The notes under the pieces: model-generated
What the model was told of the DNA's origin: nothing
The model's database searches: none
Seen by the model: only the letters and a program-made list of their open reading frames with translations
Program-made: the position numbers and the translations under genes
From: Plasmodiophora brassicae
Taxonomy: Eukaryota
Assembly (NCBI GenBank): GCA_036867785.1
Contig: CP145422.1
Span: forward strand, 1,107,680-1,127,679
Reading direction: 5' to 3'
DNA length: 20,000 nt
In this document: positions 1 through 20,000 of the stretch, one piece after another
How the letters are laid out: each line of letters starts with the position of its first letter
Position numbering within the stretch: position 1 is the stretch's first letter

Positions 1-2
1 CC

Positions 3-2217: not shown

Positions 2218-2468
2218 GGGCAGCGGTTCGCAGGCACACGCGGCGATGTCGACGGGCTGGCGATGGCCCGCTACGCCCCGAAATAGAATCTCCCGACACC
2301 CGAAATGGCAGGGCACACGCAGCAGCACCAGACAGTGAGACCCCAACAGCTGTGTCCACTAAACGACTTCCGTCGATGACGCTGGCCGCGCCAACAGACC
2401 ACAGCAGCGGGAACCGACTGACGTAACTGACGTAATATATTCGTGTCGATAGGGCGACCGCGCATGCG

Positions 2469-4157: not shown

Positions 4158-4665
4158 ATGTTCATCGACAAGCTCAGCAAGAACGCGTCGCACCGATGGG
4201 CCATGCTGCGTACCATGGCGACGCAGCTGCTTCAGTACGGGCGGATTGAGACGACGCTGCCCAAGGCGCGGCAGCTGTCCAAGGTGGCCGACCGCCTCAT
4301 CACGTACGCCAAGCGCGGCACGGCCGGGTCCCGCATGCAGGCGACCCGCATCGTGCGAAGCACGGACATGATCGACAAGCTGTTCAAGGAGATCGCCCCT
4401 CGGTACACGCACCGGGACGGCGGGTACACGCGCGTCCTGCGATCCCGCAAGCGGTACGGCGACAACGCCACCATGGCCTTCATCGAATACGTTGACAGGT
4501 ACGCGCACCTGGGCGGCTAACCGCATGTCAACTGATGCTGGATCTCGTTTGGGCAGACCCGGGGAATTGCGACAGGCGCGAGCGCCGCCCACGATGGCAC
4601 CGCGGTCGTCTACGACGGCGTCATCCGTGTCGGACGTCGATGTTGAAGGCGAGACTGTCCAGTAG
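4158..4665 (+). CDS. MRPL17: Ribosomal protein bL17, nuclear-encoded, probably mitochondrial (149 aa)
   Basis: Exons 4158-4498 and 4557-4665 (intron 4499-4556). KLSKNASHRWAMLRTMATQLLQYGRIETTLPKARQLSKVADRLITYAKRG...LFKEIAPRYTHRDGGYTRV...GDNATMAFIEYVDRPGELR are canonical bL17 motifs. Confidence 0.95.
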
Positions 4666-4768
4666 ATCGGGATCGGCAATAAAGCCTCACAGGTCTCCCC
4701 AACATCTAAATATCTGTGCATCTAACAACGACAGGCACGCGTCTCTCTATCCGTGTTACGTGACGACG

Positions 4769-7278
4769 ATGACGGATACGATGGACATGACGGTCGTCCA
4801 GCCGTTGTCGATGACAATCATGACGGAGGGGACGACGACGGTCATGGGGTCGTTTGCCACGAGTCGTAGGGACGACGGGGTGGGCGACGGACGACAGGAG
4901 GATCGCGGCCTGGAGGATCCCGTGCTGACGAGCTTCTGGGACTTGGTCCCCGACATCGTCGAGGTGTACATGCGAGGAAGTGCAGGTGCCGGTGCTGTTG
5001 GAACAGGGGCGGTATCGTCGCCATCTGTCGCACGAGTCGAGGCATTGCCTGACGACGCACCGGATTCCATTGCCATACCTTTGCAGTCCATGCGATTCGA
5101 CAACAAACCCATCAGAACCAAGGTATGTACACTGAACACGGCCAGTATGGGGTAACCAGCAATGGGCGCGACCTGAGCGTCTGACGCAGATCAGGACGGC
5201 GGAGGAGAAGAGGGCCGAAATCATGGCGAAATGGCAGAACGACGCCAGGTACAGAGACTTGTTCGACTCGGCCGTCATTGTCGTCGTGGACGACGCTGAC
5301 GATAACGCCAACAACACTGCATCCGGCGGCTCGCCAGACGATAGTACAAGCAGCAAAGGGTCGGTGGGGGGTATTCGACCCGTTGGCCCAGTGTTCTGAA
5401 CGGCGCGCGCTCGATGGTAGGCAATCGTGCGACCTGAGCGACTACGTGGGGCAGGCCCAGTCGACGCATTCCCTGAAACTGAAGCAGCCGATGTTACTGT
5501 CGTCGGCGCACCCGCTCGCCAGCCAGGCATACAAGGTCTTCAAGAAGATCGCCACGTACATGATGGATCGCAAGTCCAGCAAGACGCCTCTCGTTCAGGT
5601 AGGGTCTGTGCGGCAGCCGCCCTCGGCGTTTCAGTTCACATGTGTGGCGTTTCAACAGGCACACGAGCTGCTCGAGGTGGCCATCAGGGCTCCAGAAGCC
5701 CTACGCGATGAGATCCTTGTTCAGGTTATGAAGCAGACGAACGAAAACCCGTCGCCTGAGTCGACCGTTCGTGGCTGGCGCCTGCTGTCGTTATGCCTCG
5801 GGCACTTCCCGCCGTCGTCGCAGCTGGCGCCCTACGTCAAATCGTATGTCGCGTCCGCGATCCAGTCATCGTCCAGCGAGGTCGTCGACATCGCCAAGTA
5901 CTGCATGTCGAATGTGGCACAAGTCGTCGTCAGCGGCGCCCGGGTTCATGCTGCGTCCAATGCAGAGATTGCCGCCTGCGAACGTCGCCGACCTGTCGTC
6001 GTCAAGGTACGCCTGGGACGTCGACGGCGCGCCACTCGACTAACACATCGTGCACGGCTTGTAGATCTGGCACTCGAGCGACCCTCGCGACGTGCTGCGA
6101 GTGGCTGTCGAGCCGCATACGACTGTCCGGGCCACGGTTCAGGCCGTCTCGGTGCGCCTGGGTATAACGATGCCGGCCGCGTTCGGCCTGTCCGTTCGAC
6201 GACGCAAAGGCGCCCTGCGTCAGGAGATGGCCGCGTACGAGAAGGTGCTGGACGTCGTGTCCGAATGCCTCATGGCGGGGCGGGCCAAGGACAAGGACAA
6301 CGCAACGGTCAAAGGGAAAGCCCGAACGCCAAAGGCGTCGTCGTCGTCGGCCGACGAAGCTGATCTGGTGGTGGCCATGAGCGGGATTGATGTCGGGATC
6401 CTGTTTCACGCGCGTCTCCTGATTGCCAGCAAGAACGCGTCACTGTCCGATGGCGAATTGCACATATTCTTCCAGCGGTGCGTGTCGGACGTGCTGGCCG
6501 GTCATTACCCGGCCGACGAGAAGGACCTCATGGCCCTGGCCGTCATCCAGTGCTATGCCCAGCGCATCTGCAAGGACGCGAAGGACAGTGCAGGAGCCAG
6601 CCAGCAGGGCATGCCGGAGACATTGCCAAGGACCGGGAGTGGGGCATCGGCGGAAGATCAGGGGTCCGACTGGCTGTTCGAGTACCTGCCCGCTGATATC
6701 ATCGCCATGCGCAGTCGCCCGTACCTGCAGAAACGACTGATGACCGATGCGGTCAAGACCATGGAGGGCAAGTCCAGGCGCGATGCCGAGATGGAATACC
6801 TCAGGTTCGAACCGCTCCATCGTGCATGCGTTCACGCCGGATGACCGATTAATGCTGTGGTTGCCAGATACACGGAGAAGTGGCCGACCAGCGGAGGGAC
6901 ATTCTTCGCCGCCACGCGACTAAAGAACGAGGCCAAAGGCAACGAGGACCAGCCTGTACTTCTGTGCGTCACCGAACGCGGTCTGCACTGCTGCGATCCG
7001 GGAACGAAGGCAGTCGTGAGTTGCGCCTGCTGTCGTACGGTATTCCCGCAATGTGCTCATTGTCGTAGAGGCAAATGTTCCCGTACGCTCGCATAAAGAC
7101 GATGGGCGACGTGAACGGGAACCTGCTGTCCGTGGTGGCCGGGTCCGACCTACACGAGTTCCGCATGCAATTCCTGACGGATCAGGCGCCTATGATCCAC
7201 GACCTCATGCAAGAGTATATTTCCGTCATGGCCAGCACCCACTCGAACGTCATCCAAGACGTCATCACCGAATCGTGA
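4769..7278 (+). CDS. MyTH4-FERM domain protein without a motor domain (about 715 aa)
   Basis: Predicted exons 4769-5122, 5190-5359, 5421-5598, 5659-6006, 6065-6804, 6868-7015, 7069-7278 join in frame. MyTH4 motifs: VFKKIATYMMDR, LRDEILVQVMKQTNENPSPESTVRGWRLLSLCLGHFPPSSQLAPYV. FERM motifs: FQRCVSDVLAGHYP...LMALAVIQ, AEMEYLR..EKWPTSGGTFF, VLLCVTERGLH. The start codon and first two exons are less certain. Confidence 0.85.
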
Positions 7279-8324
7279 GATGGCAAGCAACACCAGCATG
7301 CATGCATGCACGAACGATTGTACATCAGTCCATGTCCCGCCAGCGTTGACAACGACATGCTAGTTTGGTAGATCAGCGGTCGTCGAGACCGACAACCTTG
7401 TTATTCAGCGTCCGATCCTGCATGTATTTATACACGATGCAGAATACAGGACTACTGCCCATATGTGTATGGCTGCTGTAGACGTACGTAGCGTTCTTGT
7501 TCGCAGTTAGGCGGCGAAGTCGACCTCTGTTAGCATTCGGCCTTACCACATTCTGCAAACTGTTTACAAAGAAGGAGCGGAACAGCCCAAGTGCTGCAGG
7601 GAGGGAAGAGGCCCGCGTCCAGCTCTAACAGAGCACCGAGGTCACCAATCCTGGTCCGATTCAGAGACGCACCATGTAGTAGTAATAACTAGCCCAGCTT
7701 TTGATTGTCAGAGGCGGCGACCGTCTGGAGGTGTAGGTACCTGCGGAATGCGGCAGGCCAACACGGAACGAAGCTCGTTTCAGGCTAGAACGATCAGCGC
7801 GTCGGCGAATTGCTCTCTACGAAACTGTAAAATGCCTCAGTCTTATAACGTACAATGCAGCACATGAGCAGTATTATAGACGTCTTGGGGTAAGGATAGA
7901 TCAAGATGAAAGCATCCACGAGGGCGGACACTGAACATCGGGATCGTAATTTGGCAGCGGTCCGTTCGAGGACTTACGCCTGCCAAGCGTTCCCGCAGTC
8001 ATAACGGTTGGCGAGACGCCGATCCGGATCCATGCCGTTTGCTATAAACGCTATGGGCAATGGCCGTCCTGCCCGGTACACGATAGCAACCCGCGTCGTC
8101 GCGCTCCTTGTTCTAAATTGCCTGACTGTGGACATGGGCCATGGCAAGCTTGGTGGTCATTTCCGAGATTCATCACTAACAGGAGATCGGTCAGAAACAA
8201 AATACACAGGTCACCGGATCCCGACATGTGGATATTGTAATATTGTAATGACGAGATCACTCGAGAATGGTATGAGAGCACAGGCTGTGGACCCGTGGTG
8301 CATTGTCACCGGAACACAATATTG

Positions 8325-11300
8325 TTACTCTTTGACCATGGCAGAGGGTGTTGCTGTGATGTGCCGCCGGATTGTGTCGAGGACCGTCGCAGCGGTATCG
8401 ATCAAGGCCATGTCCGTCGGCTGCTGTATGACGGCTTCGAGTTTGCCGATGAACGTCGTGTCGAGCGTTTCTGGGAACGTTCCGGCGCCGATTTGCACAC
8501 GAACCAATGGCCACCATGTAACCATACACTGCAACAGGCGAAGCAAATTCGCACGATGTATCATCAGTGCGCGATCAGCAGGCGGTGGTGGCCCAGGCGC
8601 TGCAGACGGCATGCCCAGAATCAGATCTACGACAGGATCCGAAGGCTTACTGGTCGGGTTGACAATGTGAATGCGATGCAGAGGGTGCATGCGTTTATGC
8701 GCACCCTGGCACAATTCGCATTCGTCGAAATCGTCGCAGTCGAAGCAGTGGTAGCGGGTTGACGAGAAACCCAGGTCCTTCCGACATACATCACAAGAGA
8801 ACTGAACCGATACGCCCTGCAAGCGACTGATAGAATGGTGCAACGCATCCAAAGCTGACGGCGTCGTCGTTGGTTTCGACGTCCGGCAAAGACCATTAGA
8901 CCTCTCGACGACGTCGGCCCATGATATTGGTGACTCCAACCGCACCGGGGCCCACCTGCCGGGGAAAGAGGGTGGGGGTCCACCCATGGAAAATGCAGAG
9001 GATGCAGAGGACGCTGCGCGGGTTGACGATCCACCAAACAGACTTGAAGGCGGCACAGGCGGTGCTGCCGCGGAAGGCGCCGGTGAACCAAAGTACACAG
9101 GTACTGGCCCCACCGTTTGCGACCCACACCCCGGCCTGGCTGGCGCTGAAGGCGCACAAGGCACATTGCGAATCGGCAGGCTTGCCGGATTCGGCGAACC
9201 GAAGAACCCGTGTGCCTGAGCAACAGCCGGAACCAAATGCGGATTCGGTGGGCGGACCAGACAAGGTTGTGGGTCGGGAGCCGCGTGCTCCATATCGATT
9301 GGTTCGTGAGGAATCGTGGTCTGCGCACGGCCAAGGTACGATGTCGAACCCGACGGCGCCGGCACGTTGAACGCGAACGACACGTCGTCTTCGATGCGGT
9401 CGCGCATGCGCTGGACCGCGACACTGCCGTTCCAGACCACGTACTTCGAATCGGTCATGGCTGACATCCATTCGTATGCCAGATCTGCACCGGATAACGT
9501 TTCGTCAGCGACGCGAACATTCGTGCGGTCGTCAATGTTGCCGTTGATTACAACCCGGATCCGGCGAGATACCTCCTCAAAGTCGGGCAGGCGACTCACG
9601 ACGTAGAGCATCAAGTCTTGGTCAACATCGGCCCCGACAATCTTCGCACCCACAGAATTCACGTCTGTGACGACGTCGGGCTTGTCGAACTGAAGTCGAT
9701 TCCCAGCTTGAGCCGCGAGAACTTGGACGCCTGATACGGTGATGTCGATCGGCTGTCGACGAAGAGCGGCAACCCACGCTGCAAATTCGATCCTGAAGAT
9801 ACGGTCCAGGCCAGGCTCGTCGACCTGCATCGACAGCAATGCAGGGCATGGGCCTAGAACGCGAGCCACTCGCGATGCGGTATCCTGACTGACCCAGGCC
9901 CCAAATCCGGTAACAACGCCACCACAGACCTGCAATTCCCTGCACACCACTTCCAGGTCGTCCAGTACGGCATCAACCGGGCCATTATGCCCGCCGTCCG
10001 TATCAAAGTCGATGAACGTCTTGAGGTTCAGGGACTCGCCGGCGGCTTTAGCGAGCAGTGGTCGTGCCAGTTGCTTTGCACCTCGAACAGGCACCACGAA
10101 ATCTGTGCCGCCGTTAGGACGAAGCCCAGACAGCCAGGCAAACAACTCGTTGACAGAATCGAGCGCCTGGCGCGTGGCGTCGTTCGTGAAACTGGACTGA
10201 TGCAGAGATTCGGGGGCGTCTTTGACCCGAAATGACACAAGACGGTGGCCCAGCAGCGTATGGTCAAATGCAATGACAAGTTCTGCCCAGATATCGTTGC
10301 CGTCGATGAGACCTGCATTCAGCAATGTCTTGATTGCGCCCAAACGTTTCTCGATGCGCGTGCGCGCCATCTTGTTGAAACAGTCGCGAACAGTGCCCGT
10401 CTGAGACCAAACCAGGCCAGTGCTCCCCGACGAATCCGACATTGTCAGGTGCAGAAGCAGGGCAGGTGACCTTCGGCTCGACAGCGACGTCGGCGTATGA
10501 ATCCGGACGCGCATCAGCCGACCGGGAACCGACACGGTTACACGTTCGCGATCCAGGTCGTTGTTCGGCGCTAGGATCGTGCATTGCGTCGAGAGGCTAT
10601 CGTTGACAGATGTCTGCAGAAGACGGTCGGCCTTCGGATTCGGTATTGCCAACCATGCGACCAGGAACGTCGGTTGCGGGGGCAAGCACGCCCACCGGTA
10701 TCCACGTTCCGATATTGGCGACGCCGCCAGCATGCAGTAATTGGTCGGGAACTGGGATTTCAAATGGTGATACGCTCGGCTGTGGGTGCTAACGGGCAGA
10801 AGTTCCGCCGAAGACGGCAGGCGCAGGGAAACAGAAAGCAACGTATTGCCAGATCCATCGTAGACCGGTGCCCAGGGTAGGAACAAGGCAAACGGAAGCA
10901 AACGGCCGGTGCCAAGGTCGCTTCCGTCGGGACGTGAACCCATCATATCGTACAGAACCGGGTTCAACGCTGACAGACGAAGCGTGACGCGACCCTTGTG
11001 AGCAACGGGGCCGATTTCGACGGTGATGTCGTCGTCGACGGCCGCTGTCGCAATCCCGGCGGTCTGATTCGTCCCGGATTGGCGAACGGCATCGACAACG
11101 GCCTGCGCTTGAGCGGTGTACGCGATGGACGTCGGGATATCAATCCAGGACTGGGTCGTTTCGTCCCATTCGTGCAACGCTGTCGAGATGAGATTGAGCA
11201 GAGATTTGTCGTGCGAGGAGATTCTAGTGCGGGCCAGGCGCAGACGCACCGACATGGACTCCCCCGGATGCGGGTTCGTAAAATCCAGTGTCAGCGTTAC

Positions 11301-11411
11301 GCGCAAAGCGTCCTCCGATACAGTCACATCAAAGGACATCGCAGACGGATGGATGACTGGACGCGGCGGCGCACGTGACCACCCAGCAGAAGCTGAACAC
11401 TGTAGCGCCAA
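8325..11411 (-). CDS. Large protein with VIT-like N-terminus, vWA domain, Pro/Ser-rich linker and ZZ-type zinc finger
   Basis: 1028-codon open frame. VIT-like FDVTVSEDALRVTLTLDFTNP; vWA MIDAS DSSGS, LRPNGGTDF, DTDGG, VTGFG; ZZ finger CDVC..RYHCFDCDDFDECELC..H...H. First in-frame ATG is at 11339; a CTACAG acceptor at 11400 suggests unresolved upstream exons (11457-12170). Confidence 0.8.
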   Translation of the reverse strand: MALQCSASAGWSRAPPRPVIHPSAMSFDVTVSEDALRVTLTLDFTNPHPGESMSVRLRLARTRISSHDKSLLNLISTALHEWDETTQSWIDIPTSIAYTAQAQAVVDAVRQSGTNQTAGIATAAVDDDITVEIGPVAHKGRVTLRLSALNPVLYDMMGSRPDGSDLGTGRLLPFALFLPWAPVYDGSGNTLLSVSLRLPSSAELLPVSTHSRAYHHLKSQFPTNYCMLAASPISERGYRWACLPPQPTFLVAWLAIPNPKADRLLQTSVNDSLSTQCTILAPNNDLDRERVTVSVPGRLMRVRIHTPTSLSSRRSPALLLHLTMSDSSGSTGLVWSQTGTVRDCFNKMARTRIEKRLGAIKTLLNAGLIDGNDIWAELVIAFDHTLLGHRLVSFRVKDAPESLHQSSFTNDATRQALDSVNELFAWLSGLRPNGGTDFVVPVRGAKQLARPLLAKAAGESLNLKTFIDFDTDGGHNGPVDAVLDDLEVVCRELQVCGGVVTGFGAWVSQDTASRVARVLGPCPALLSMQVDEPGLDRIFRIEFAAWVAALRRQPIDITVSGVQVLAAQAGNRLQFDKPDVVTDVNSVGAKIVGADVDQDLMLYVVSRLPDFEEVSRRIRVVINGNIDDRTNVRVADETLSGADLAYEWMSAMTDSKYVVWNGSVAVQRMRDRIEDDVSFAFNVPAPSGSTSYLGRAQTTIPHEPIDMEHAAPDPQPCLVRPPNPHLVPAVAQAHGFFGSPNPASLPIRNVPCAPSAPARPGCGSQTVGPVPVYFGSPAPSAAAPPVPPSSLFGGSSTRAASSASSAFSMGGPPPSFPGRWAPVRLESPISWADVVERSNGLCRTSKPTTTPSALDALHHSISRLQGVSVQFSCDVCRKDLGFSSTRYHCFDCDDFDECELCQGAHKRMHPLHRIHIVNPTSKPSDPVVDLILGMPSAAPGPPPPADRALMIHRANLLRLLQCMVTWWPLVRVQIGAGTFPETLDTTFIGKLEAVIQQPTDMALIDTAATVLDTIRRHITATPSAMVKE

Positions 11412-12237
11412 AGCGTTCAGATTGGCTCTGACGACTCCTGCACATCGCTGTCAGTTCTACCGACGGAAGACGGATTCCGGATCACCATTGGGCGGTGTTG
11501 TGTCGTCCCCTGGCCCAGGTGCCAGCTGCGCCGAACTGATCGCCTCCTCTTCGCTGGGAGCAACCATGCCGCGGACGCTCCCATCGGCGCCGATCGTGTA
11601 GCAGCCGGTGACCGCATCCGAATGCCGGTCGCGAAACCACTGCATCTGCTTCGCGCCACGAAACTTGATGGCGGCGTTCTTCAGGCCCTCCCGTCGCACT
11701 CAGGTTTCCGTTGACAGAAAGAATTTTGCTTCAATCACGCCGGAGGCCGCTCTGAATGGAGAAGATCCCAGACATAAGCCTGTCGTCTTGCGAATCGCCC
11801 CAAGCGCCGTAACGCCAGCAGAGTGTTGCGTGAATCCGTCGCGCACGGCAACGACGTAAGCGGATGATGAGTAGACCGTGCTGACAGGTGTACGCGCGCC
11901 TGGTCTCCCTTACAAGGGGTTGTTGCGAGATCGAGCCACAGTTAGCTAAGAAGACGTTGGAAGGAGCATTAAAAATTAGAGGCAGCGGGACAGTTTTCAT
12001 CGACATAGATGCTACTGTTCTTCTCGTATTGCGAAGATGTAGCACAAATTGGTTAGGTGTGCTCGTGCCATATATAAAGTCAGGAAAACCCGTTCGGGGA
12101 TGCTGAAAGACGAGCGGGATGGTATCCTTGCCTTCAACATGCACGCTGGCTTCGTTCGCCGTTAGCAAGTTTGGCCAACAACGGGTTCATGATGTTTGAA
12201 CCAGGCCACATTGCCAGCATCATGCTTCGTTGCGCCA

Positions 12238-12500
12238 CTATCGATCTCGAAGCGGCAGCAGGTAGTGCTTCGAGCAGACGCCGTCCTCCATGCAGGGCGA
12301 ATCGGGGTTATCCGCCCCGCAAGTGCCGTGCATCATGTGCGACTTGACCAAGTCGTATAGAAGTGGCTGCCGGTCTGGGTCAGGGATTTCCGCGCACACC
12401 AACGAATCGACCAGGCCGACGTCATCGGTCCTCATCTCGAGCCAGATCACGATGTTTGCAAGCGCAGCCCGGTTCGTTGCATAACCGAGACCAGTTTACA
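12238..12500 (-). mobile_element. Degenerate Helitron Rep (RepHel) fragment
   Basis: VIWL...VDSLVCAEIPDPDRQPLLYDLVKSHMMHGTCGADNPDSPCMEDGVCSKHY matches the conserved Helitron Rep segment (AEIPD..LY..V...M.HGPCG..NP.SPCM..G.C.K.YP). The upstream QRTGL/LANIVIW looks like a frameshifted, decayed EFQKRGLPHAHILIW HUH motif. Confidence 0.85.
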
Positions 12501-12701
12501 CCTGTCAGTACGGTCTACTCATCGCTGTGCTTATCGACAATATCCAATTCCATCTGTCATCCTAAGGTGATCAGGTGAAGGAAACAGTTTCGCCGATCGG
12601 GTCTGTAGTCGTAAACATCCGGAATTACGCTATCCAGAGCATGAAACGCAATTCGGAGGAGAGGCGACTTGGCCTTGTTTAGTATCCGCGGCGCGTCTGT
12701 T

Positions 12702-13398
12702 TCAGGGAGATGTCTTCTTGCTGGCCGCTCGTATCCAGAACTGTAGGTCCAGCTGCTTGGAGAATTCCTCTTTGCAGTTGTCGCAGCCGCCACCGCAATT
12801 GACGACCTTCTTTAGGTCGTACAGCGATTTCATGATCGTGTATCCGTCATTTGTTAGGATCTTCTTCGTGTCGCGATCAAACACGAAGAAGGCGGGAAAT
12901 TCTGCCAAAGTTTAGTGCCAGACGGTCGTTCGAATGCCCAAGCTATTACCGATGCAGTGGTCCTTGAGCATCTTGCGGACGGCGGCCAGGTCGGCCTCCG
13001 TCTTGGGGATGTAGTTCAGGTTGAAGAACTTCTTATCCCGCATGAATTTTGCAAACCCTTCGTTGTCGAACGGAATCTCGTTGAACGAATGGTTTTGGAT
13101 GACCAGCGAAATTTGAGACGCGTTGTACTCCTGGATACGGCTCAGATTCGGCGATCTGGAACATTGAAATTATTTGTCAGGCGACCGGTTGTAGATCCGA
13201 GCGCACTTACATCATGCCGCAGTACTGACACCACCCCATCGACGTGAACACGATGACGACCTTGGACAGATCTTCGCGCTTGCATCTCTGTTGATCCTTG
13301 TTCAGCAGACCGGACCAGTCAAACGAATCCATGCTGAGCTGCGGATGGTTCAACTCGTGGCACCTGGACCCGTCGCATCGATAGTTGTCGTTGGACAT
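12702..13398 (-). CDS. Thioredoxin-fold oxidoreductase (nucleoredoxin/tryparedoxin-like), WCQYC active site, about 197 aa
   Basis: Exons 13398-13211, 13155-12950, 12901-12702 (introns of 55 and 48 nt, GTAAGT/GTAATA..CAG) total 594 nt in frame: KVVIVFTSMGWCQYCGMISPNLSRIQE...KMLKDHCIEFPAFFVFDRDTKKILTNDG (cis-Pro loop and the typical IxxDG tail). Start codon uncertain. Confidence 0.8.
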
Positions 13399-13948
13399 TA
13401 TCGAGTTGGTTGGATGGGATTTTCGCGATATGACCTTGCGGCACGCGAACGTATCTTCGCTGAGTTTACCCTCCAGACAGGTGACAGCCCGTAACTCCGT
13501 GGTGGGCGTCGTCAGCGCGGCAGACGACCCAACGACGCTGCCGGCAACGCCGCCTACTGCGACATCGTACACTGCTGCCCGGTCGGCACCGTACGGCACA
13601 AGTCGTCCAGGCCCAGATGCGCCTGCCTGCCCTGTCCGCTCGTGACGTCGCCGCCGAACAGAGGCACCGTGTTCATCCAGAGTACCAGTACTCAGATGAT
13701 GCTGCTCAGATGCTGCTGCCACCCGGTCACATGATCATGACCGTACTCGACCCCGCAGCGGCCCTTGCTGTGACGATCCTGTCCAAATACATCAGTTCGT
13801 TATATCACCAGGCGCCGACTCTTGCGACCGACCGCCCCCGTAGTGGGCAGCGGCGGCGTTAGCACAGAAGCTTCTTGCGCAAAGAGCCCCAAGCAAACGA
13901 ACTCACTTAATGGCAGGAGGTGGCCGCAGAGCGCCCGTTCGTCTACAG

Positions 13949-14131
13949 ATGGAGGACGACGCCAGGACCAACTCCGACGCCGAGGCCAAGGAGCATGAAT
14001 CGTCGACAGATGACGAAATCGATCGAGGGCTTCAGTCAACAAACCTGCACGGTAAGAGCCCGATCTTTATGCCTTTGAGGGGTTTTAGGAACTTCTATTT
14101 GTATTTGTCAGATACAGCTAAAGCGTCGTGA
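13949..14131 (+). pseudogene. Possible remnant of a host gene interrupted at the retrotransposon 3' junction
   Basis: Acidic coding-like stretch MEDDARTNSDAEAKEHESSTDDEIDRGLQSTNLH, a strong donor GTAAGA at 14052, an acceptor TTTGTCAG at 14111 (60-nt intron), then only DTAKAS-stop before the element's 3' region. Confidence 0.35.
14074..14089 (+). repeat. Short interstitial telomere-like remnant TTTGAGGGGTTTTAGG
   Basis: About two degenerate TTTTAGGG units on the same strand as the terminal telomere, about 110 nt beyond the ORF2 stop. Confidence 0.45.
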
Positions 14132-14191
14132 GCTCGGCGGGAACGGACGTGAATAGGACAGGCTTGACTCGAGTGACAGGATCGGCGGAGT

Positions 14192-14226
14192 GCGCAGCGT
14201 TCACGGCGGGCGCCATGAACGCGCGC
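14192..14226 (-). promoter_or_regulatory. Predicted RNA stem-loop spanning the ORF2 stop codon
   Basis: Sense RNA GCGC-GCGUUCAUGGC-GCCC-GCCGUGAACGC-U-GCGC: an 11-bp stem with one U-G wobble plus 4 bp after a single-U bulge. Confidence 0.55.
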
Positions 14227-17200
14227 GGCGCTCTATGTCGGCCGCACTGTGCCCGTCCAGTGGCGACTGGACACGGCCGGACGACGATGCAGGCGACGGC
14301 GCGTCGGGGCGCAGCGGCACACGAGCTTCATGCTGGGGTCCAGCGTCGGCTTCCGCCGGTCGCCCGGTCGCGTTGGCAATACATCTCATCACGATGGCCG
14401 TCATTATCGCCGTCGGCGAGAGATGGTGGGCGCGTCGACGAACTCGGGCATCGGCATCGATCTCTGGGCCGGCTATGTCCGCACCGCCCAGGAACCCGAC
14501 CAGTGCAGGGTCGTCGAGGACATGTTCGGCGACTTCAACGGCGACTCGCGCGTTCTCGTTGTCCTCATCGTCGCTGATCTCGTTCCATAGCGTCGCGTCC
14601 AGGCCAGCAAGCGCAGCGACGCCCTGAGCGGAGATGGCGAGCGACTCGCCGCGGATGCAGCGGGCGGCAACGGCGCGGATGAACGTGCCCAGGACGGCCA
14701 GCCAGCGTCGCTGGCGATCGCTCAGCCGAAACGTCGGGTCGCGCGGATCCGGCATGCGGCGCGGTCGTAGACGGTCGTCTTCTCTGGCGGGCGGCGCCGT
14801 CAGGCGTGCGTAATCGTTGAGCTGGATGGCGACGTAGTCGATGGCGACGCCCGTGTCCGCCCTGTTGAAGTGCAAGGCATGGATGCGCCAGTCGATGATT
14901 GGCCTGAGCAGGCGCGACGATTCAGTGCAACGGGCAGCAATGTGATACCTCGAGAGGTTCTTGTCGTTGCACGCCCGGCACTGGGCGTTCGAGCCCGGTA
15001 TGCGGTTCGTGACCCATGAAGCCACCGCATATGCGTCGTCGCCCGAGTGGTACGCCGCCGGAAACGGGAGGTTATACGGCTGCAGCTGCAGGCGCATCAG
15101 CTTGCAGGACGCATCAGCGGCAGCCCACGTGTGGAGCTCGAGCGCTTGCAGCAGGGCGTCTTGCCGATCGGGCAGGCGTGGGCGCTTCCGCGTCGGGCGG
15201 CCGGCTTCGGCGTCGGCGAGTTCTTCACGGGCGCGTTGCTCGCGGGCGTCACGACCGTTCCTGTAGATGGCGGTTGCGTCCGCGTAGACCTTGCAGCCCT
15301 TCAGCATCATGTTGAATCGGCTGCGCGGGTTGCTGAGCGCCCAGCGCGTGACGCGGACCAGGAACGGGACGCGATCGCCATCCTTGATCTGCTCCGACCA
15401 CGTGATCTGCTTGAACGCGAACCGGGCGCGCAGCTTGGCCTGGCGGGCAGCGGCGGGCACGAGTCCCGCGTACCGGAGCATCAGGGACGAGCCGATGCGG
15501 CGGCGGTATCCACCGAAGAACAGGGCGGCGGCCGACTTCTGCAGCTGGTCGAGCTTCTTCAGTAGGCCGACGTGGCTGTTGCTGATGGCGAGTCCGTACT
15601 CGGCGCGCGAACGGATCCAGGCGCCGACGACGCGCGTCTTCCGGACGATCGACAGGTGCTTCGTGCTGAACACGCCCGAGTGCATGATCCCGATCATGGC
15701 CTTCTCGGCTTTGGCTGTCCGCGAGGCGAGCTGGGCTCGATGATCGAGGCGACCATCCTTCATGACGACGCCCAGGAAGCACACCGGCTTGTCGAGCTCG
15801 TGCTCCTCGACGACGCGGTTGCCGCCGATGGTCAGGGCTGCCGGCTGCGCGGCGGTCGACGTCCTCGGCCTGGAGACGATCGATTTCGTCGCGTTCCACT
15901 CGAGTTCGTGCCGCTGCGCGTACTCCTGACAGAGGTCCATCATGGCCTGGGCCATCTGGTCGGTGAAGGCGTGCAGCAGGGTGTCGTCGGCGTAGAACTG
16001 GCAGGGCACCGGCATGTGGTCGAACATCGGGGCCTCGTCGCCGAACCGCGACACGATCAGGTACGGCAGGTCGTCGATCAGGACGTTGAATAAGTCAGGG
16101 GAGCCAATCGCGCCCTGGAATAGGCCGACGAGCGCGGCGATCCGCTCGGACAGCTGCCCGTCCAGAGCAATGATGAAATGGCAGCCGTCAAACAAGGCCT
16201 GCAGAACGGCGATGATATGTGCAGGTACGCCTCGTCTGCGTAGCTTTGAGTAGACATGAATGCGGCGGGCGCTATCATACGCCTTCCTCATGTCGAGGAG
16301 GACCTCGATCAGCGGCTTGCGTCGTGCCGCCCAGTGGGTGGTCAGCTCGTCGGCCACCCACACGGCTTCGGGGACACCGATGCCTCGCCGAAATCCAAAC
16401 TGGAGGAAGTGCATCTGCAGCCACCCCTTCAGGTGCATGTACGTGATCAGACACGTCTCATATGCCTTCCGGAGGTGGGACTGCAGCGCAATGCCTCGCC
16501 AGTTCGACGGGTCGGCGGGTTCGGTGTTCCGTTTGTGCACGGGCACAACGAGCGCCGACCGCCAGTCAGACGGCACGAGCTGCACAGTGTACAAGCAGGT
16601 GAGCATGCAGGATATCCAGGGGCCGGCGGCATCCGGGTCACACTTCAGGAGGTCCATCGGTATGTTGTCCGGGCCGACCCCCTTCATCCACTCATGCCGT
16701 TTGATGATGGCGGTGACGACAGCGGGGCCGAACGCATGGCGCTCCTCGTCGTCCAGGTCGTTGGAGAGGCGCGGGGAACGCAGGCGCGGGCCGTCGTCCA
16801 CGCCCGGCTTCTCGAAGACCGCTTTCCAATGGTCGGCGAATTCCTCGATGGACGGGCGCTGGCTGGGCTGCAGCTGCGACGTGGCCGCAAAGACGCGTCG
16901 CATCGAACTGAGGTAGAAGCGCAGGTCGCAGCGCTGCAGCGCCTGCCAGTCGGGACGCATCGTTGCCGTGCGACCTCGCTTGGACCGGGAGCTGGGCCAG
17001 CAGGCGATGTCCTCGAGAACGGCGCGAAGGACGTCAGTGGTGTGGCGGTACAGGCTGTCGACGGCGTCCTGCAGGGCTGCGGTAGGGTGGTCAGCGATCT
17101 CGTCGAAATCACTGGTGGCATCCAGCCACAGGGCACGTAGATAGTTGTAGGCCGGGGCCAGCAGGACCGACAGGGCTGGGCGATCGTCCGGGTCAGCGAA

Positions 17201-17965
17201 CATCCTGCGCGCCCAGGAGTAGCGCTTCGGGTCAACGCGTTCCGGCACGACGTGATCGCTCGCGACAACCAGCATGCGATGCGCCGTGCTGATCGGTGCG
17301 TCGACCACGCTGAGGCGCGCAGAGTCGAGACCGCGGGTCAAGGCGAGATCGACGACGGAGCGTCCGTTGCCGTTGGGCACCACGAATGTCCAGCGACTGG
17401 GATCGCCGCGGAGTGCATAGTTCAAGAGTGACAGTGAGCACCGGCCGATCAGCTCCATGACGTGAGGCTTCCGCGGGCAGGACGTGCTGTCGCCGGAGAC
17501 GTCGCCGAGGCGAGCGTTAAAGTCGCCGACAATGGCGAGACGGTCCCCGTCCGAGCAGTGCGTCGCAATGGCGTTGGCGAGGCCGAACAGCGTCATCTGG
17601 TACGTGTCGACAGGCAGTGACCTGGCCGGGCGGATGTACACGCCGGCGACGACAAGGTCCTCGCCAACGCGCCAAACCGCCCACCTTGGAGTGATGCACT
17701 TGCGCTCGCGGGCGACCTCCCGCAGCGCCACAGCGGCCGGGACCATGATGCTGATGCCACCATGGCCCCTAAGTTCGTTGGCGGATCGCCCGCCAGCGAC
17801 ATGTCGAATTTGGTAATCTGTGAGAACATTGGTTAGTAGCGATTCAGAACGTACATAGGTTTCCACAAAGACCGCCGCCGTGAGGCGACGATCTCTGAAG
17901 AAGGCGGCCGTGGCCTGGAGCTTGGCAGCGTCCAGGCCATCGGAATTCCACGCAGCGATCAGCAT
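14201..17965 (-). CDS. LINE ORF2: AP-like endonuclease, reverse transcriptase, CCHC zinc knuckle
   Basis: APE motifs AWNSDGL, FVETY, GGISI, GVYIRP, IVGDFNAR, WTF..RSVVDLAL, TAHRML. RT motifs KGVGPDNIP, VPVHKR, NWRGIAL, QFGFRRG, LDMRKAYDS, GLFQGAIGSPDLFN, FYADD (YADD at 15983-15994), NATKS, FLGV. C-x2-C-x8-H-x4-C at 14927-14980. Confidence 0.97.
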   Translation of the reverse strand: MLIAAWNSDGLDAAKLQATAAFFRDRRLTAAVFVETYVRSESLLTNVLTDYQIRHVAGGRSANELRGHGGISIMVPAAVALREVARERKCITPRWAVWRVGEDLVVAGVYIRPARSLPVDTYQMTLFGLANAIATHCSDGDRLAIVGDFNARLGDVSGDSTSCPRKPHVMELIGRCSLSLLNYALRGDPSRWTFVVPNGNGRSVVDLALTRGLDSARLSVVDAPISTAHRMLVVASDHVVPERVDPKRYSWARRMFADPDDRPALSVLLAPAYNYLRALWLDATSDFDEIADHPTAALQDAVDSLYRHTTDVLRAVLEDIACWPSSRSKRGRTATMRPDWQALQRCDLRFYLSSMRRVFAATSQLQPSQRPSIEEFADHWKAVFEKPGVDDGPRLRSPRLSNDLDDEERHAFGPAVVTAIIKRHEWMKGVGPDNIPMDLLKCDPDAAGPWISCMLTCLYTVQLVPSDWRSALVVPVHKRNTEPADPSNWRGIALQSHLRKAYETCLITYMHLKGWLQMHFLQFGFRRGIGVPEAVWVADELTTHWAARRKPLIEVLLDMRKAYDSARRIHVYSKLRRRGVPAHIIAVLQALFDGCHFIIALDGQLSERIAALVGLFQGAIGSPDLFNVLIDDLPYLIVSRFGDEAPMFDHMPVPCQFYADDTLLHAFTDQMAQAMMDLCQEYAQRHELEWNATKSIVSRPRTSTAAQPAALTIGGNRVVEEHELDKPVCFLGVVMKDGRLDHRAQLASRTAKAEKAMIGIMHSGVFSTKHLSIVRKTRVVGAWIRSRAEYGLAISNSHVGLLKKLDQLQKSAAALFFGGYRRRIGSSLMLRYAGLVPAAARQAKLRARFAFKQITWSEQIKDGDRVPFLVRVTRWALSNPRSRFNMMLKGCKVYADATAIYRNGRDAREQRAREELADAEAGRPTRKRPRLPDRQDALLQALELHTWAAADASCKLMRLQLQPYNLPFPAAYHSGDDAYAVASWVTNRIPGSNAQCRACNDKNLSRYHIAARCTESSRLLRPIIDWRIHALHFNRADTGVAIDYVAIQLNDYARLTAPPAREDDRLRPRRMPDPRDPTFRLSDRQRRWLAVLGTFIRAVAARCIRGESLAISAQGVAALAGLDATLWNEISDDEDNENARVAVEVAEHVLDDPALVGFLGGADIAGPEIDADARVRRRAHHLSPTAIMTAIVMRCIANATGRPAEADAGPQHEARVPLRPDAPSPASSSGRVQSPLDGHSAADIERRARSWRPP

Positions 17966-17975
17966 CGCTGCGTGG
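17948..17975 (-). promoter_or_regulatory. Perfect 12-bp hairpin at the ORF1/ORF2 junction (candidate translational-coupling element)
   Basis: Sense strand CCACGCAGCGAT-GCTG-ATCGCTGCGTGG. The ORF2 ATG (17965-17963) and ORF1 TGA (17961-17959) straddle the 4-nt loop. Confidence 0.7.
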
Positions 17976-19632
17976 GGTTCGTCTCAGTCGTCCCTGCCAG
18001 ACCGGCCGAGGCCGGCGCCGGCAGGACAGGGCGCATGGTGCCCTGTTCGTCGGTCTGGGATGCGCTGCGTGCTGCAGCATCGTTGTCAGCGGAGGCGGCT
18101 GGGCCGCCGCCAGCTCGTTCGTCCGCCGCGCCAGATGGTTCACCCTCCTCCTCCTCCTCCAGCGTCAGCGATACAGCTTGGCGTTTGGCGATCGGCCTAC
18201 GCCGCATGCTGTACGACTTCTGGCTGTCGAGCTGGAACGCGTTGTCGTCTCGGACGTCGTCCGCCGGCATTTCCACCAGGTCGGAAGATGGTGGCGTGAG
18301 CTCGTTGATGATTGAGGCGACTGGGGGATACAGCGCGCCCATCGCACATGAGCTGCATGAATCGGCATTGGTGTGGGCGTCGTCGTCGCAGATGTCAATG
18401 CTTGGGCGGTCGTCCTCGGGCGTGACAGGAACGTCATCAGTGGGGCTTTCGGCGGGCGCCACGCTCTCGTCAGTACTTGGGGCAGCCTGCACAGGAACAA
18501 CAGCAGGCGGCGCGTCAGTGGGCCTCATAGGCCCCGAGCTCATCGGCGGGCGTGGCTGCTCCCCAGCCGGTGCCATGGGCACGTGGTGATGATCAGGGGC
18601 CGGTGCCGCCCTTGACCGCTCCCAGTCAAGCATTGCCTCGAACTGCCGCTTCGCGGATCGTCGCAGACAGCTGTCAACGCGGCTCGTGATTCGCTCCAGC
18701 CGATAGATGAAGTTGTCGTTCGCGAACTGCTCTTGCTCTGGCTTGGCCAGCTTGCGGAACGCCGCCGAATCGAACAGGAACGGTTCTGTCGGGCGCCGGT
18801 CGAAGTACGTCCGGTAGTCGTGGTGAATGAGCCGGTTGACGATGTCGTTGGTCTCGTGCTCGTAGGCCCACACCTCGAGCATCGACGTCCCATGCAGGAA
18901 CCCGATTTCGACAATCTTGCGAATGTCGAAGCCCTTCGTTTTCAGGATTCGACGGATTGCACTGAGCGGCTGGCGTCGAAAACCGCGAACGTACACCGGG
19001 CGTAGCTTCCAGCTGAGCATCGTTGTCGACTGAGGCGGGGCGCCGACGGCGCGGGTGTCATCGATGGGGTAGAGCGGTCGCCACTGCAGGACTTGCGTCG
19101 TGCTGCCCGCAACAGGTCCAGGCGCGCTGCTGGTGGCGGCTTCAGCGTACGTGGCCGGACAGCGCCTTGCGGCACGGGTCCGCGTCAGTTCCCCGATCTT
19201 GCTGGCTTGAGCGGCGAGGTCTGACTCCAGCCGAGCCGCTGTGCTCGCGTGTTGTTGGCGCGACTCGGACAGGTCCCTGTTGAGGGCGTCAAGTCGCTCT
19301 TCCACGATGGATACGCGGCCCGTCACGTCAATCGTGCGATCTCCAGCCAGGCTGCGGACGATCCCGTGCAGCTCAGTGACGTTACGTTCGTTCGCGGTGA
19401 CGCGGCTCTGCAGGGCAGAGACCGCGTCCTTGTCAGGTGCAGGATCGTTTGACGCTGGCTCGCGATCGGTGTCGTCCACAGTTCGCAGAGTAGCAGGCTC
19501 GCCATCATCGTTGACCTCGACGTCGGGTGGCGCGGGCGTGGCGCTCTTGGTGGGCCTCTGCGACCGCAGCCAGGCCGACGATAGCTGCGACCCAAGGGCG
19601 GCGATCTGCTTCATCATCGCCGTTCCGCCCAT
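17959..19632 (-). CDS. LINE ORF1 (gag-like nucleic-acid chaperone): coiled coil, RRM-like core, disordered acidic/Pro-rich tail
   Basis: 557 aa directly upstream of ORF2. Heptad-like region VSALQSRVTANERNVTELHGIVRSL...LDALNRDLSESRQQHASTAARLESDLAAQASKIGEL; ATYAEAA motif common in LINE ORF1s; beta-alpha-beta pattern PVYVRGF..PLSAIRRILKTKGF..IVEIGFL..MLEVW. Confidence 0.85.
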   Translation of the reverse strand: MGGTAMMKQIAALGSQLSSAWLRSQRPTKSATPAPPDVEVNDDGEPATLRTVDDTDREPASNDPAPDKDAVSALQSRVTANERNVTELHGIVRSLAGDRTIDVTGRVSIVEERLDALNRDLSESRQQHASTAARLESDLAAQASKIGELTRTRAARRCPATYAEAATSSAPGPVAGSTTQVLQWRPLYPIDDTRAVGAPPQSTTMLSWKLRPVYVRGFRRQPLSAIRRILKTKGFDIRKIVEIGFLHGTSMLEVWAYEHETNDIVNRLIHHDYRTYFDRRPTEPFLFDSAAFRKLAKPEQEQFANDNFIYRLERITSRVDSCLRRSAKRQFEAMLDWERSRAAPAPDHHHVPMAPAGEQPRPPMSSGPMRPTDAPPAVVPVQAAPSTDESVAPAESPTDDVPVTPEDDRPSIDICDDDAHTNADSCSSCAMGALYPPVASIINELTPPSSDLVEMPADDVRDDNAFQLDSQKSYSMRRRPIAKRQAVSLTLEEEEEGEPSGAADERAGGGPAASADNDAAARSASQTDEQGTMRPVLPAPASAGLAGTTETNPTQRC

Positions 19633-19684
19633 TCGGTTCGAACACTTGATTTTCTTCGCTGGTGCGGGCGGGTTGCGGCACTGG

Positions 19685-20000
19685 TAGGGCTTAGGGTTTT
19701 TAGGGTTTTAGGGTTTTAGGGTTAGGCTTAGGGTTTTTTAGGGTTTTAGGGTTTTAGGGTTTTTTAGGGTTTTTAGGGTTTTTTAGGGTTTTTTAGGGTT
19801 TTAGGGTTTTAGGGTTTTAGGGTTTTAGGGTTTTAGGGTTTTAGGGTTTTAGGGTTTTAGGGTTTTAGGGTTTTAGGGTTTTAGGGTTTTAGGGTTTTAG
19901 GGTTTTAGGGTTTTAGGGTTTTAGGGTTTTAGGGTTTTAGGGTTTTAGGGTTTTAGGGTTTTAGGGTTTTAGGGTTTTAGGGTTTTAGGGTTTTAGGGTT
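19685..20000 (+). repeat. Telomere, (TTTTAGGG)n, with a proximal variant zone at 19685-19798
   Basis: Homogeneous TTTTAGGG from 19799 to the window end. Proximal units include CTTAGGG, TTAGG, T5AGGG and T6AGGG. The G-rich strand runs 5'->3' toward the end, as expected for a chromosome terminus. Confidence 0.98.

What the first reader, a model, noticed from the sequence alone, without database searches (positions are those of the whole stretch)
14074..20000. Intact LINE capping the chromosome end in telomerase-like orientation: candidate telomere-targeting or healing retrotransposon
Seen: an intact ORF1+ORF2 element sits between the last host gene and the TTTTAGGG array, with only 52 nt between the ORF1 ATG and the first repeat. 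It is encoded on the minus strand, so its cDNA is the G-rich strand extended toward the chromosome end. Known: target-primed reverse transcription starts from a 3'-OH at the element's 3' end. Drosophila HeT-A/TART/TAHRE and Giardia GilM/GilT have this 5'-end-distal polarity, and Bombyx SART/TRAS and Magnaporthe MoTeR are telomere-repeat-targeted. Inference: this family either inserts into TTTTAGGG arrays or is primed from eroded or broken ends and then re-capped by telomerase. I do not know of such a family described for plasmodiophorids or Rhizaria, but cannot search to confirm.
Basis: partly seen in the sequence, partly recalled or inferred. Interest (0 to 1): 0.92.

Follow-up and report, generated by a model that had tools for sequence, protein, structure and literature searches.

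The report
Telomere-tailed LINE capping a chromosome end
A jumping gene (LINE) of the clubroot parasite Plasmodiophora brassicae forms the last 5.6 kb of a chromosome under the telomere, and it and its relatives end in a short piece of telomere repeat instead of the usual poly(A), which suggests that telomere DNA primes their copying.

Summary
A LINE lies at 14085-19686 on the minus strand. ORF1 (557 aa) and ORF2 (1254 aa, APE + RT + CCHC) are open. The 5' end touches a terminal TTTTAGGG array 52 nt from the ORF1 ATG.

Three corrections:
- The element does not follow the last unique host gene. It follows a broken copy of a repeat with about 80-150 times single-copy depth (13494-14078).
- Its 5' UTR is cut short, because other copies run on past 19686.
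- It is multicopy, biased toward the 3' end, and transcribed.

New evidence concerns the 3' end. The window copy and all 5 of 5 metagenomic relatives with a visible 3' end lack poly(A). They end in 1.5-5 C-strand telomere-type units, always starting CCTAA. The unit is T4AG3 in the window, matching the host telomere. It is T4, T5, T2 or T3 in the relatives. One relative is a head-to-tail tandem joined by five such units.

Best reading (0.55): a LINE lineage whose reverse transcription is primed by a G-strand telomeric 3' end. Here it sits on a broken end and telomerase capped it afterwards.

The decisive census of copies could not be run, because no genome is held. Other copies show non-telomeric flanks beyond 1-2 units.

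Verdict: new variant of a known kind, interest 0.62.

The parts
14085..19686 (-). LINE copy (non-LTR retrotransposon), the part shared with other copies in sequencing runs
   Evidence: Loose ends of other copies at 14085 (before) and 19686 (behind). Summed contig depth is above single copy across the stretch, and 3' exceeds 5'.
17959..19632 (-). ORF1, 557 aa. No Pfam family. The core (residues 223-315) is weakly shared with ORF1 of relative L004. The frame is open upstream to 19686, so the N-terminus may be cut.
   Evidence: Residues 205-557 are 99% identical (350 of 353) to a protein named by NCBI as hypothetical protein PBRA_009705 of Plasmodiophora brassicae.
14201..17965 (-). ORF2, 1254 aa
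17252..17953 (-). APE-type endonuclease domain (ORF2 residues 5-238)
   Evidence: Pfam Exo_endo_phos E 2.3e-5 (24.7 bits, cut-off 24.5) and Exo_endo_phos_2 E 9.1e-5. E35, GDFN 157-160, D216 and H229 are invariant in 7 of 7 family proteins aligned.
15845..16534 (-). Reverse transcriptase domain (ORF2 residues 478-707)
   Evidence: Pfam RVT_1 E 1.2e-18
14927..14980 (-). C-terminal Cys-Cys-His-Cys motif of ORF2 (C996, C999, H1008, C1013)
   Evidence: Invariant columns in the alignment of 8 family proteins
14090..14200 (-). 3' UTR, 111 nt, no poly(A), no significant fold
   Evidence: fold z-score +1.63; no Rfam match
14079..14089 (-). 3' tail CCTAAAACCCC, about 1.4 C-strand telomere units (GGGGTTTTAGG on the + strand). 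It lies between the LINE body and the broken repeat A.
   Evidence: It is the only CCTA(2-5)CCC match on either strand of window 1-19684. Same register as in 5 of 5 relatives.
19687..20000 (+). Terminal telomere array (TTTTAGGG)n, G-rich strand running to the end of the window. The first ~100 nt hold variant units (T5AG3, T6AG3, and GCTTAGGG twice). The TA at 19685-19686 is shared by the LINE and the first unit.
13494..14078 (+). Fragment of another high-copy repeat ('repeat A'), cut at 14078. Intact copies elsewhere continue with non-telomeric sequence. It holds an ATG-started open frame from 13910.
   Evidence: Depth 5931/23429/9753 against single-copy 74-79/267-288/66 in X1/X5/X7. Loose ends at 13494 (before) and 14078 (behind).. 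No Pfam family.

Best explanation
This is a nearly full-length copy of a multicopy, transcribed APE-type LINE of Plasmodiophora brassicae. Both ORFs are open and the outer 5' UTR is missing. The element belongs to a lineage, also present in soil and rhizosphere metagenomes, whose members carry no poly(A). They end in a short run of C-strand telomere repeats that always starts CCTAA.

Proposed mechanism (inferred): reverse transcription is primed by the 3'-OH of a G-strand telomeric repeat (...TTAGG-3') that pairs with, or lies directly against, this tail. That fixes the orientation so that the element's 5' end points to the chromosome end.

Proposed history in the window:
1. The chromosome had been cut inside a copy of another repeat, at 14078.
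2. About one telomere unit joins that break to the LINE 3' end.
3. cDNA synthesis, or later erosion, stopped inside the 5' UTR at 19686.
4. Telomerase built the present array on that end.

Two routes cannot yet be told apart. In one, the primer was a free, short or healed chromosome end. In the other, the element's endonuclease nicked the base of an existing array.
For: Shown:
- LINE anatomy.
- The copy is multicopy with a 3'>5' depth gradient. Contigs identical to the window have, relative to single-copy depth: in X1 about 13x at 15612-16150 and 5.5x at 18778-19686; in X7 9x at 14726-15082 and 0.7x at 18949-19686; in X5 2x at 17364-17879 and 0.9x at 19175-19714. The tool warns that depth is not a copy number.
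- RNA. Run X9 skips three 48-55 nt introns in host genes, so it holds RNA. It covers the LINE 15810-19686 in two contigs without differences at depth 42-45. The intergenic stretch 11874-12746 has depth 1.3-2.7.
- Tail. 6 of 6 visible 3' ends end in CCTAA-phased telomere-type units: window T4, L001 T4, L002 T5, L003 T2, L004 and L006 T3. The window's tail type equals its own telomere.
- Control. The motif occurs in 5 of 6 family loci (the sixth lacks a 3' end), in 1 of 49 other loci (228,848 nt), and once in window 1-19684, at the LINE end.
- L004 is a head-to-tail tandem: tail of 5 units, then 21 nt, then the ORF1 ATG.
- Intact copies of repeat A continue past 14078 with non-telomeric letters (X5 and X7). 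So the telomere unit at the junction was not in the target beforehand.
- The rest of repeat A is not found beyond the LINE.

Inferred: the priming step, the order of events, and telomerase capping.
Against: - No census of copies was possible.
- The 3' flanks of L001, L002, L003 and L006 are non-telomeric after 1.5-4 units and unrelated to the LINE.
- In X1, three contigs of other copies have about one variant unit followed by non-telomeric letters before 14085 (agreement only 0.64).
- The 5.5x contig of X1 continues 5' into non-telomeric sequence. So many copies may be interstitial.
- The APE domain is kept in the family. 7 of 8 aligned members match Exo_endo_phos_2, and the catalytic-type residues are invariant. 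An element that only used free ends would not need it.
- The hosts of L001-L006, and hence their telomere repeats, are unknown. The match between tail and telomere is verified in 1 case only.
- The LINE-telomere bridge is shown in one run, which may be the assembly's own source.
- No conserved 3' UTR structure was found.
Confidence: 0.55

Rival explanations
1. Coincidence plus healing. An ordinary dispersed LINE had inserted into a copy of repeat A in a TE-rich subtelomere. Later a terminal deletion broke the chromosome inside the LINE's 5' UTR and telomerase healed the break. The telomere-like tail is only this family's simple-repeat 3' end, as other LINEs have (TAA)n or similar, and has no link to telomeres.
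For: - Other copies extend beyond 19686, so the end really is a truncation.
- Only TA is shared between the LINE and the first unit, and the first units are irregular, as expected for de novo addition.
- Other copies and relatives have non-telomeric flanks after 1-5 units.
Against: - It needs the break to fall within the outermost part of a 5.6 kb element of the one orientation that matches end-priming.
- It does not explain why the tails are restricted to CCCTA(2-5) units in one register across relatives that are only 31-35% identical in ORF2.
- It does not explain why the window's tail equals the host telomere unit.
- It does not explain why L004's 5' end also abuts telomere units.
Confidence: 0.22
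2. TRAS-like site-specific insertion. The APE nicks the G strand of double-stranded telomere repeats at one position of the unit, and the element integrates inside an existing array, here at its base. It also integrates into short interstitial telomere-like tracts and into the tails of earlier copies, which gives tandems. No free end is needed. This is a sub-case of the main reading (same primer, different way of exposing it).
For: - The APE is conserved in the family.
- The register of the junction is fixed in 6 of 6 cases.
- The L004 tandem is what insertion into a predecessor's tail would give.
- SART1Bm needs at least three repeats and uses a defined position (abstract of PMC7265360).
Against: - Proximal tracts are only 1.5-5 units. 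In the window the tract is about 1.4 units, less than SART1Bm needs.
- Intact repeat A has no telomere-like site at the break, so an array must first have been added there.
- No poly(A) is present, unlike TRAS and SART (recalled).
Confidence: 0.2
3. Assembly artefact. A LINE contig was wrongly joined to telomere repeats or to repeat A.
For: - Both repeats are longer than short-read word sizes.
- No listed contig spans 13574-14726.
- The Stjelja 2019 passages mention repeat-rich contig ends that resisted assembly.
Against: - X5 record 16 spans 511 nt of LINE plus 28 nt of the variant telomere units without a difference, at single-copy depth.
- The variant units next to the LINE are unique sequence, not a generic array.
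Confidence: 0.03

Closest known systems
TRAS1 / SART1 of Bombyx mori (telomeric-repeat-specific LINEs, R1 clade)
   Same: Both are APE-type LINEs with two ORFs tied to telomere repeats, with a fixed junction register. TRAS has the same strand relation, with the C strand on the sense strand (recalled). These elements are listed as telomere-inserting in PMC10088271 (passages). SART1Bm target rules come from the abstract of PMC7265360.
   Different: - TRAS and SART carry poly(A) and sit inside long arrays (recalled, plus the abstract on the poly(A) need). Here there is no poly(A) and only 1.5-5 units lie on the proximal side.
- Their ORF1 has CCHC knuckles (recalled). Here ORF1 has no Pfam match.
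- The RT clade was not determined here.
Athena and Coprina, endonuclease-deficient Penelope-like elements
   Same: [quoted passage not shown] This is the closest match to the tail seen here.
   Different: - They are PLEs (telomerase-related RT) without an endonuclease, and they have hammerhead ribozyme motifs.
- Here the element is a LINE-type RVT_1 with a conserved APE and has no Rfam ribozyme match.
HeT-A / TART / TAHRE of Drosophila (jockey clade)
   Same: The 5' end is distal, the 3' end faces the centromere, elements are added to chromosome ends, and they form head-to-tail arrays (abstracts of PMC5537684 and PMC2173066 in search listings; polarity recalled). L004 shows such a head-to-tail pair.
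   Different: The Drosophila elements replace telomerase and carry poly(A) (recalled). Here telomerase repeats cap the element, only one copy is present at this end, and the tail is a telomere unit.
Zepp of Chlorella vulgaris
   Same: It is a LINE-like element that accumulates at a chromosome terminus, with telomere repeats added onto a 5'-truncated copy. This is recalled from Higashiyama 1997, which is not held. It is listed as telomeric in PMC10088271.
   Different: Zepp has poly(A) tails and nested or tandem piles (recalled). No telomere-unit tail is reported, to my recollection.
GilM/GilT (Giardia), MoTeR (Magnaporthe), FoTeR (Fusarium)
   Same: They are non-LTR elements confined to telomeres and oriented arrays (listed in PMC10088271; FoTeR abstract start only, in the listing).
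   Different: They are single-ORF elements without an APE and with a restriction-like endonuclease (recalled). Their telomere-like repeats lie at the 5' end in MoTeR (recalled). Here the element has two ORFs, an APE, and a 3' tail.
Endonuclease-independent L1 insertion at dysfunctional telomeres (Morrish et al. 2007)
   Same: A LINE RT uses a free chromosome end as primer. I saw this only in the reference list of PMC4700185. The content is recalled.
   Different: That is an experimental situation with poly(A)-tailed L1 in repair-deficient cells. It is not a lineage with a telomere-type tail.

Membership tests
APE-type non-LTR retrotransposon (LINE) | Reverse transcriptase domain of the non-LTR type | tested here: met
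   RVT_1 E 1.2e-18. 8 of 8 family proteins match RVT_1. Best PDB matches are R2 proteins (1.6e-12) and human L1 ORF2p (2.9e-9).
APE-type non-LTR retrotransposon (LINE) | N-terminal apurinic/apyrimidinic-like endonuclease | tested here: met
   Exo_endo_phos 24.7 bits against a cut-off of 24.5. E35, GDFN, D216 and H229 are invariant in 7 of 7. The residue before the His is Ala or Pro rather than the Asp of the 'SDH' motif (motif recalled). The APE region alone finds no PDB chain by sequence.
APE-type non-LTR retrotransposon (LINE) | Multicopy with 5' truncation, so 3' parts are more abundant | tested here: met
   Depth gradient in 3 of 3 DNA runs. The tool cautions that summed contig depth is not a copy number.
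APE-type non-LTR retrotransposon (LINE) | Poly(A) or simple-repeat 3' tail | tested here: met
   No poly(A). The tail is a telomere-type unit in 6 of 6.
APE-type non-LTR retrotransposon (LINE) | Assignment to a named clade (L1, Tx1, R1, jockey ...) by RT phylogeny | not tested
The family stands apart: 23 of the 150 listed representatives have E <= 1e-52, and the next tier is at 1e-49 and weaker with 25-31% identity.
Telomeric-repeat-specific LINEs (TRAS/SART type) | Copies embedded in telomere arrays, with repeats on both sides | tested here: inconclusive
   The window has an array on the 5' side but about 1.4 units on the 3' side. L004 has 5 units between copies. L001, L002, L003 and L006 have 1.5-4 units followed by other DNA. 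Short-read metagenome contigs could not cross long arrays.
Telomeric-repeat-specific LINEs (TRAS/SART type) | Poly(A) tail at the junction | tested here: not met
   0 of 6
Telomeric-repeat-specific LINEs (TRAS/SART type) | Endonuclease cleaves telomere repeats at one position | not testable with these tools
   Only the fixed junction register (6 of 6) hints at it.
Terminal-addition retrotransposons (HeT-A/TART type) | 5' end distal, 3' end toward the centromere at a true chromosome end | tested here: met
Terminal-addition retrotransposons (HeT-A/TART type) | Copies confined to chromosome ends, in head-to-tail arrays | not tested
   No genome is held. There is a single copy at this end. A tandem is seen only in relative L004.
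EN-deficient Penelope-like elements (Athena/Coprina) | Reverse-complement telomere repeats at the 3' end | tested here: met
   6 of 6
EN-deficient Penelope-like elements (Athena/Coprina) | No endonuclease; hammerhead ribozyme motifs; PLE-type RT | tested here: not met
   The APE is present. There are 0 Rfam matches at E <= 0.1 in the window and L001-L006. So this is not a member. It resembles them only in the tail.

The most novel reading that the evidence does not exclude
A LINE lineage works in a telomerase-like way. The 3' end of its RNA (or its obligatory primer) is the C-strand telomere unit of its host, and the unit co-evolves with the host's telomerase template (T2, T3, T4 and T5AG3 forms seen). 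The element can extend or heal chromosome ends in organisms that still have telomerase. In P. brassicae it creates new chromosome termini at breaks inside other repeats and so shapes the variable karyotype of this parasite.
Probability: 0.35. Interest if true: 0.82.

Novelty: new variant of a known kind. Interest (0 to 1): 0.62.

Why it matters
- Telomere-associated retrotransposons are known from insects, Giardia, Chlorella, fungi, rotifers and a lizard (PMC10088271 passages). My searches and the passages read found none for Rhizaria.
- The combination seen here is a conserved APE endonuclease, no poly(A), and a C-strand telomere unit as the 3' end in a fixed register. It joins the strategy described for endonuclease-free Penelope-like elements to an ordinary LINE body.
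- If the tail really follows the host telomere unit, the family gives a natural series for studying how a retrotransposon RT is aimed at a telomeric primer. That bears on the old question of how telomerase and retroelements are related.
- For P. brassicae genomics, it explains why some chromosome ends are hard to assemble. It also flags a young, transcribed element whose number of identical full-length copies seems to differ between samples (about 5.5x, 1-2x and about 1x).

Tried and rejected
- Whole-genome census: not possible, no genome is held.
- Earlier notes of this scan: none for this genome or sequence. A word search gave two Naegleria cases that did not change my reading.
- Genome-contig scan: 9 loci, all distant (22-28%), no family member. 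Viral-contig scan: none.
- Naming the RT clade failed.
  - The Atlas gave only unnamed clusters. Some neighbouring clusters carry zf-RVT on 18-30% of members, which is a lead only.
  - PDB matches by sequence are weak, and there are none for the APE alone.
- Conserved 3' UTR structure: z-scores +1.63, -1.04, +0.47, -1.49 and +0.42 in 5 of 5 folds, so none.
- Ribozymes and other Rfam families: 0 matches.
- Pfam for ORF1, repeat A's open frame and the neighbouring ORFs: nothing. In one search the repeat-A frame was entered one base off. It was redone correctly.
- Downstream flanks of L001, L002, L003 and L006 as 5'-truncated LINE copies: rejected, since blastn found only self-matches.
- RNA holders: no run is on record as RNA ('no RNA holder listed'). 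X9 is treated as RNA only because its contigs skip introns.
- X7 record 24 (depth 0.7x) and X9 record 29 run 83 and 167 nt past 19686. Their letters were not shown, so they say nothing on whether those continuations are telomeric.
- Papers not held: Gladyshev & Arkhipova 2007, Higashiyama 1997, Arkhipova & Morrison 2001.
Full report
**1. What is in the window**

- The + strand ends in 38 copies of TTTTAGGG (19691-20000, TRF score 495).
- Telomere-like letters begin at 19685. The first ~100 nt hold variant units: T5AG3, T6AG3, and GCTTAGGG twice inside a 38-nt duplication.
- On the minus strand lie ORF1 (17959-19632, 557 aa) and ORF2 (14201-17965, 1254 aa), overlapping by 7 nt.
- ORF2 has an APE-type endonuclease (residues 5-238) and RVT_1 (478-707). 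It also has a C-terminal Cys-Cys-His-Cys motif that is invariant in the family.
- ORF1 has no Pfam family.
- 52 nt separate the ORF1 ATG from the first telomere-like letters.
- The species is Plasmodiophora brassicae. ORF1 residues 205-557 are 99% identical (350 of 353) to a protein that NCBI names as a P. brassicae hypothetical protein.
- TTTTAGGG is the telomere unit reported for that species (passages of PMC6823432 and PMC11191646).

**2. Boundaries, copy number, RNA**

I laid Logan contigs of four runs from four studies on 11001-19720 at 85% likeness.

Boundaries:
- Single-copy host contigs have depth 74-79 (X1), 267-288 (X5) and 66 (X7). All stop at 13574.
- 13494-14078 has depth 5931, 23429 and 9753, about 80-150 times single copy. 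It is a fragment of another repeat ('repeat A').
- In X5 and X7, contigs of repeat A continue past 14078 with non-telomeric letters.
- Contigs of other LINE copies diverge before 14085 (X1, 3 contigs, agreement 0.64) and behind 19686. So the LINE is 14085-19686.

Copy number:
- Depth over the LINE falls from the 3' to the 5' part in 3 of 3 DNA runs.
- Contigs identical to the window have these depths relative to single copy:

| Run | 3' or middle part | 5' part |
|---|---|---|
| X1 | about 13x at 15612-16150 | 5.5x at 18778-19686 |
| X7 | 9x at 14726-15082 | 0.7x at 18949-19686 |
| X5 | 2x at 17364-17879 | 0.9x at 19175-19714 |

- The tool warns that contig depth is not a copy number. I read these figures only as multicopy, 3'-biased, and probably differing between samples.

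The two ends of the LINE:
- X1's 5.5x contig runs on 142 nt past 19686 into non-telomeric sequence. So full-length copies have a longer 5' region and the window copy is truncated there.
- The ORF1 frame is open from the ATG to 19686, so ORF1 itself may be cut.
- X5 record 16 (19175-19714, no differences, single-copy depth) bridges the LINE and the variant telomere units. That supports the junction, though this run may be the assembly's own source.

RNA:
- X9 skips three 48-55 nt stretches with GT..AG ends on the minus strand in host genes, so it holds RNA.
- Its contigs cover the LINE 15810-19686 without differences at depth 42-45. The intergenic 11874-12746 has depth 1.3-2.7.
- So some copy of the LINE is transcribed.

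**3. The 3' end**

- On the minus strand the 3' UTR (111 nt, no poly(A)) ends ...GAAGTT. It is followed by CCTAAAACCCC (14089-14079) and then the broken repeat A.
- On the + strand this reads GGGGTTTTAGG, about 1.4 telomere units.
- Intact repeat A has no such letters at that point. The unit was therefore added, either by telomerase on a break or from the LINE RNA. It was not already present in the target.

**4. Relatives**

- ORF2 finds a paralogous P. brassicae RT at 48% identity and six metagenome proteins at 34-36%.
- The exhaustive search lists 23 of 150 representatives at E <= 1e-52. A weaker tier follows.
- A scan of metagenome contigs gave 46 loci, of which L001-L006 are family members (31-35% identity).
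- L005 lacks the 3' end. In the other 5 of 5 the 3' UTR ends without poly(A) in C-strand telomere-type units that start CCTAA:
  - L001: CCTAAAACCCTA
  - L002: CCTAAAAACCCTAAAAACCCTTA
  - L003: CCTAACCCTAAC
  - L004: five CCCTAAA-type units
  - L006: four CCCTAAA-type units
  (alignment with CCTAA invariant)
- Control: CCTA(2-5)CCC occurs on the sense strand in 5 of 6 family loci and in 1 of 49 other loci (228,848 nt). It occurs once in window 1-19684, at 14089.
- L004 is a head-to-tail tandem. Its contig ends overlap, and the tail is followed after 21 nt by the ORF1 ATG of the next copy.
- The flanks after the tails of L001, L002, L003 and L006 are unrelated to the LINE.
- The ORF1 core is weakly conserved (E 1e-4).
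- APE residues are invariant in 7 of 7.

**5. Mechanism**

Shown: every visible 3' junction places the antisense strand of the LINE directly after a G-strand telomere unit ending ...TTAGG. Both visible 5' ends (window, L004) are followed on that strand by G-strand units.

Inferred: a G-strand telomeric 3'-OH primes reverse transcription. That gives the 5'-distal polarity automatically.

Three points remain open:
- Whether the units come from the RNA (a templated tail) or from the primer.
- Whether the primer is a free end or an APE nick. In L001, L003 and L004/L006 an AATAAA lies 14-20 nt before the tail. That would put RNA cleavage at the tail's start and favour a primer-derived tail. The window lacks this signal, and its use in these organisms is assumed.
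- How the conserved APE is used. It argues that nicking is part of the life cycle.

For the window I favour this sequence of events: a break in repeat A, then a short seed, then the LINE, then telomerase. My reason is that the remainder of repeat A is absent and the target had no telomere-like site.

**6. Rivals**

- Chance location plus later healing explains the truncation and the non-telomeric flanks of other copies. It does not explain the tail series, the register, the match to the host unit, or L004.
- TRAS-like insertion at the base of an existing array shares the primer and differs only in how it is exposed.
- Misassembly is unlikely given X5 record 16, but the 3' junction bridge was not among the rows shown.

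**7. Comparison with known elements**

- Known telomere-linked elements are listed in PMC10088271 (passages).
- The tail strategy is the one described for the endonuclease-free Athena and Coprina PLEs (PMC8557442 passages). This element, however, has an APE and no ribozyme match.
- It differs from TRAS/SART by the lack of poly(A) and of long proximal arrays (abstract of PMC7265360; the rest recalled).
- It differs from HeT-A/TART and Zepp by the tail (recalled).
- Searches for such a family in P. brassicae found none. The passages of three genome papers mention only repeat classes and the telomere unit. Supplements were closed and may list the family.

**8. Verdict**

A real, young, transcribed LINE caps this chromosome end. 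Its lineage has a telomere-unit tail, which is a new variant among telomere-linked retrotransposons. Telomere targeting or healing as a regular function remains to be tested by a genome-wide census.

Noticed in passing
window 13494-14078 (+): Fragment of a very abundant repeat (80-150 times single-copy depth in 3 DNA runs). It has an ATG-started open frame from 13910 and a possible GT donor at 14052. It has no Pfam family, and its nature (a TE 5' part?) is unknown.
   Followed up: partly
window 11866-12523: 27-nt inverted repeats, 96% complementary, 604 nt apart. The depth inside (12165-12455) is about 3x in X1 and 2x in X5 but 1x in X7, and contigs break at 12328-12354. This is a possible small MITE-like element that varies between samples.
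   Followed up: no
L051 1-6041 and L026 1-6087: A different retroelement. It has one ORF of 1644-1679 aa with RVT_1 only. It is flanked on both sides by (TTAGGG)n on its sense strand, the orientation opposite to the family studied. It is probably another telomere-repeat-specific non-LTR family. One copy sits in a contig filed under a bacterial MAG.
   Followed up: partly
L005 62-1018 (same element as L003 1-951): ORF1 of this relative carries an MLLE domain, the PABP C-terminal type (E 1.2e-10). That is notable for an element without poly(A).
   Followed up: no
window 19685-19790: The telomere units next to the LINE are irregular (T5AG3, T6AG3, and GCTTAGGG twice within a 38-nt duplication at 87% identity). 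The same GGGC-TTAGG form appears in the loose-end consensus of other LINE copies' 3' junctions in X1.
   Followed up: partly
window 18778-19686 in runs X1, X5, X7: The number of identical copies of the LINE 5' part seems to differ between samples: about 5.5x, 1-2x and 0.7x of single-copy depth. This hints at recent activity. Contig depth is a poor measure.
   Followed up: no
window 11437-11484, 12902-12949, 13156-13210 (minus strand): Three short introns (48, 48 and 55 nt, GT..AG) in neighbouring host genes are shown by spliced contigs of run X9. The 1028-aa ORF at 8325-11411 has a ZZ zinc finger.
   Followed up: no
ORF2 residues 226-229 (window about 17279-17290): In all 7 family proteins, the His that aligns with the last catalytic His of APE nucleases is preceded by Pro or Ala, not by the Asp of the usual Ser-Asp-His motif (motif recalled). 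The effect on activity is unknown.
   Followed up: no
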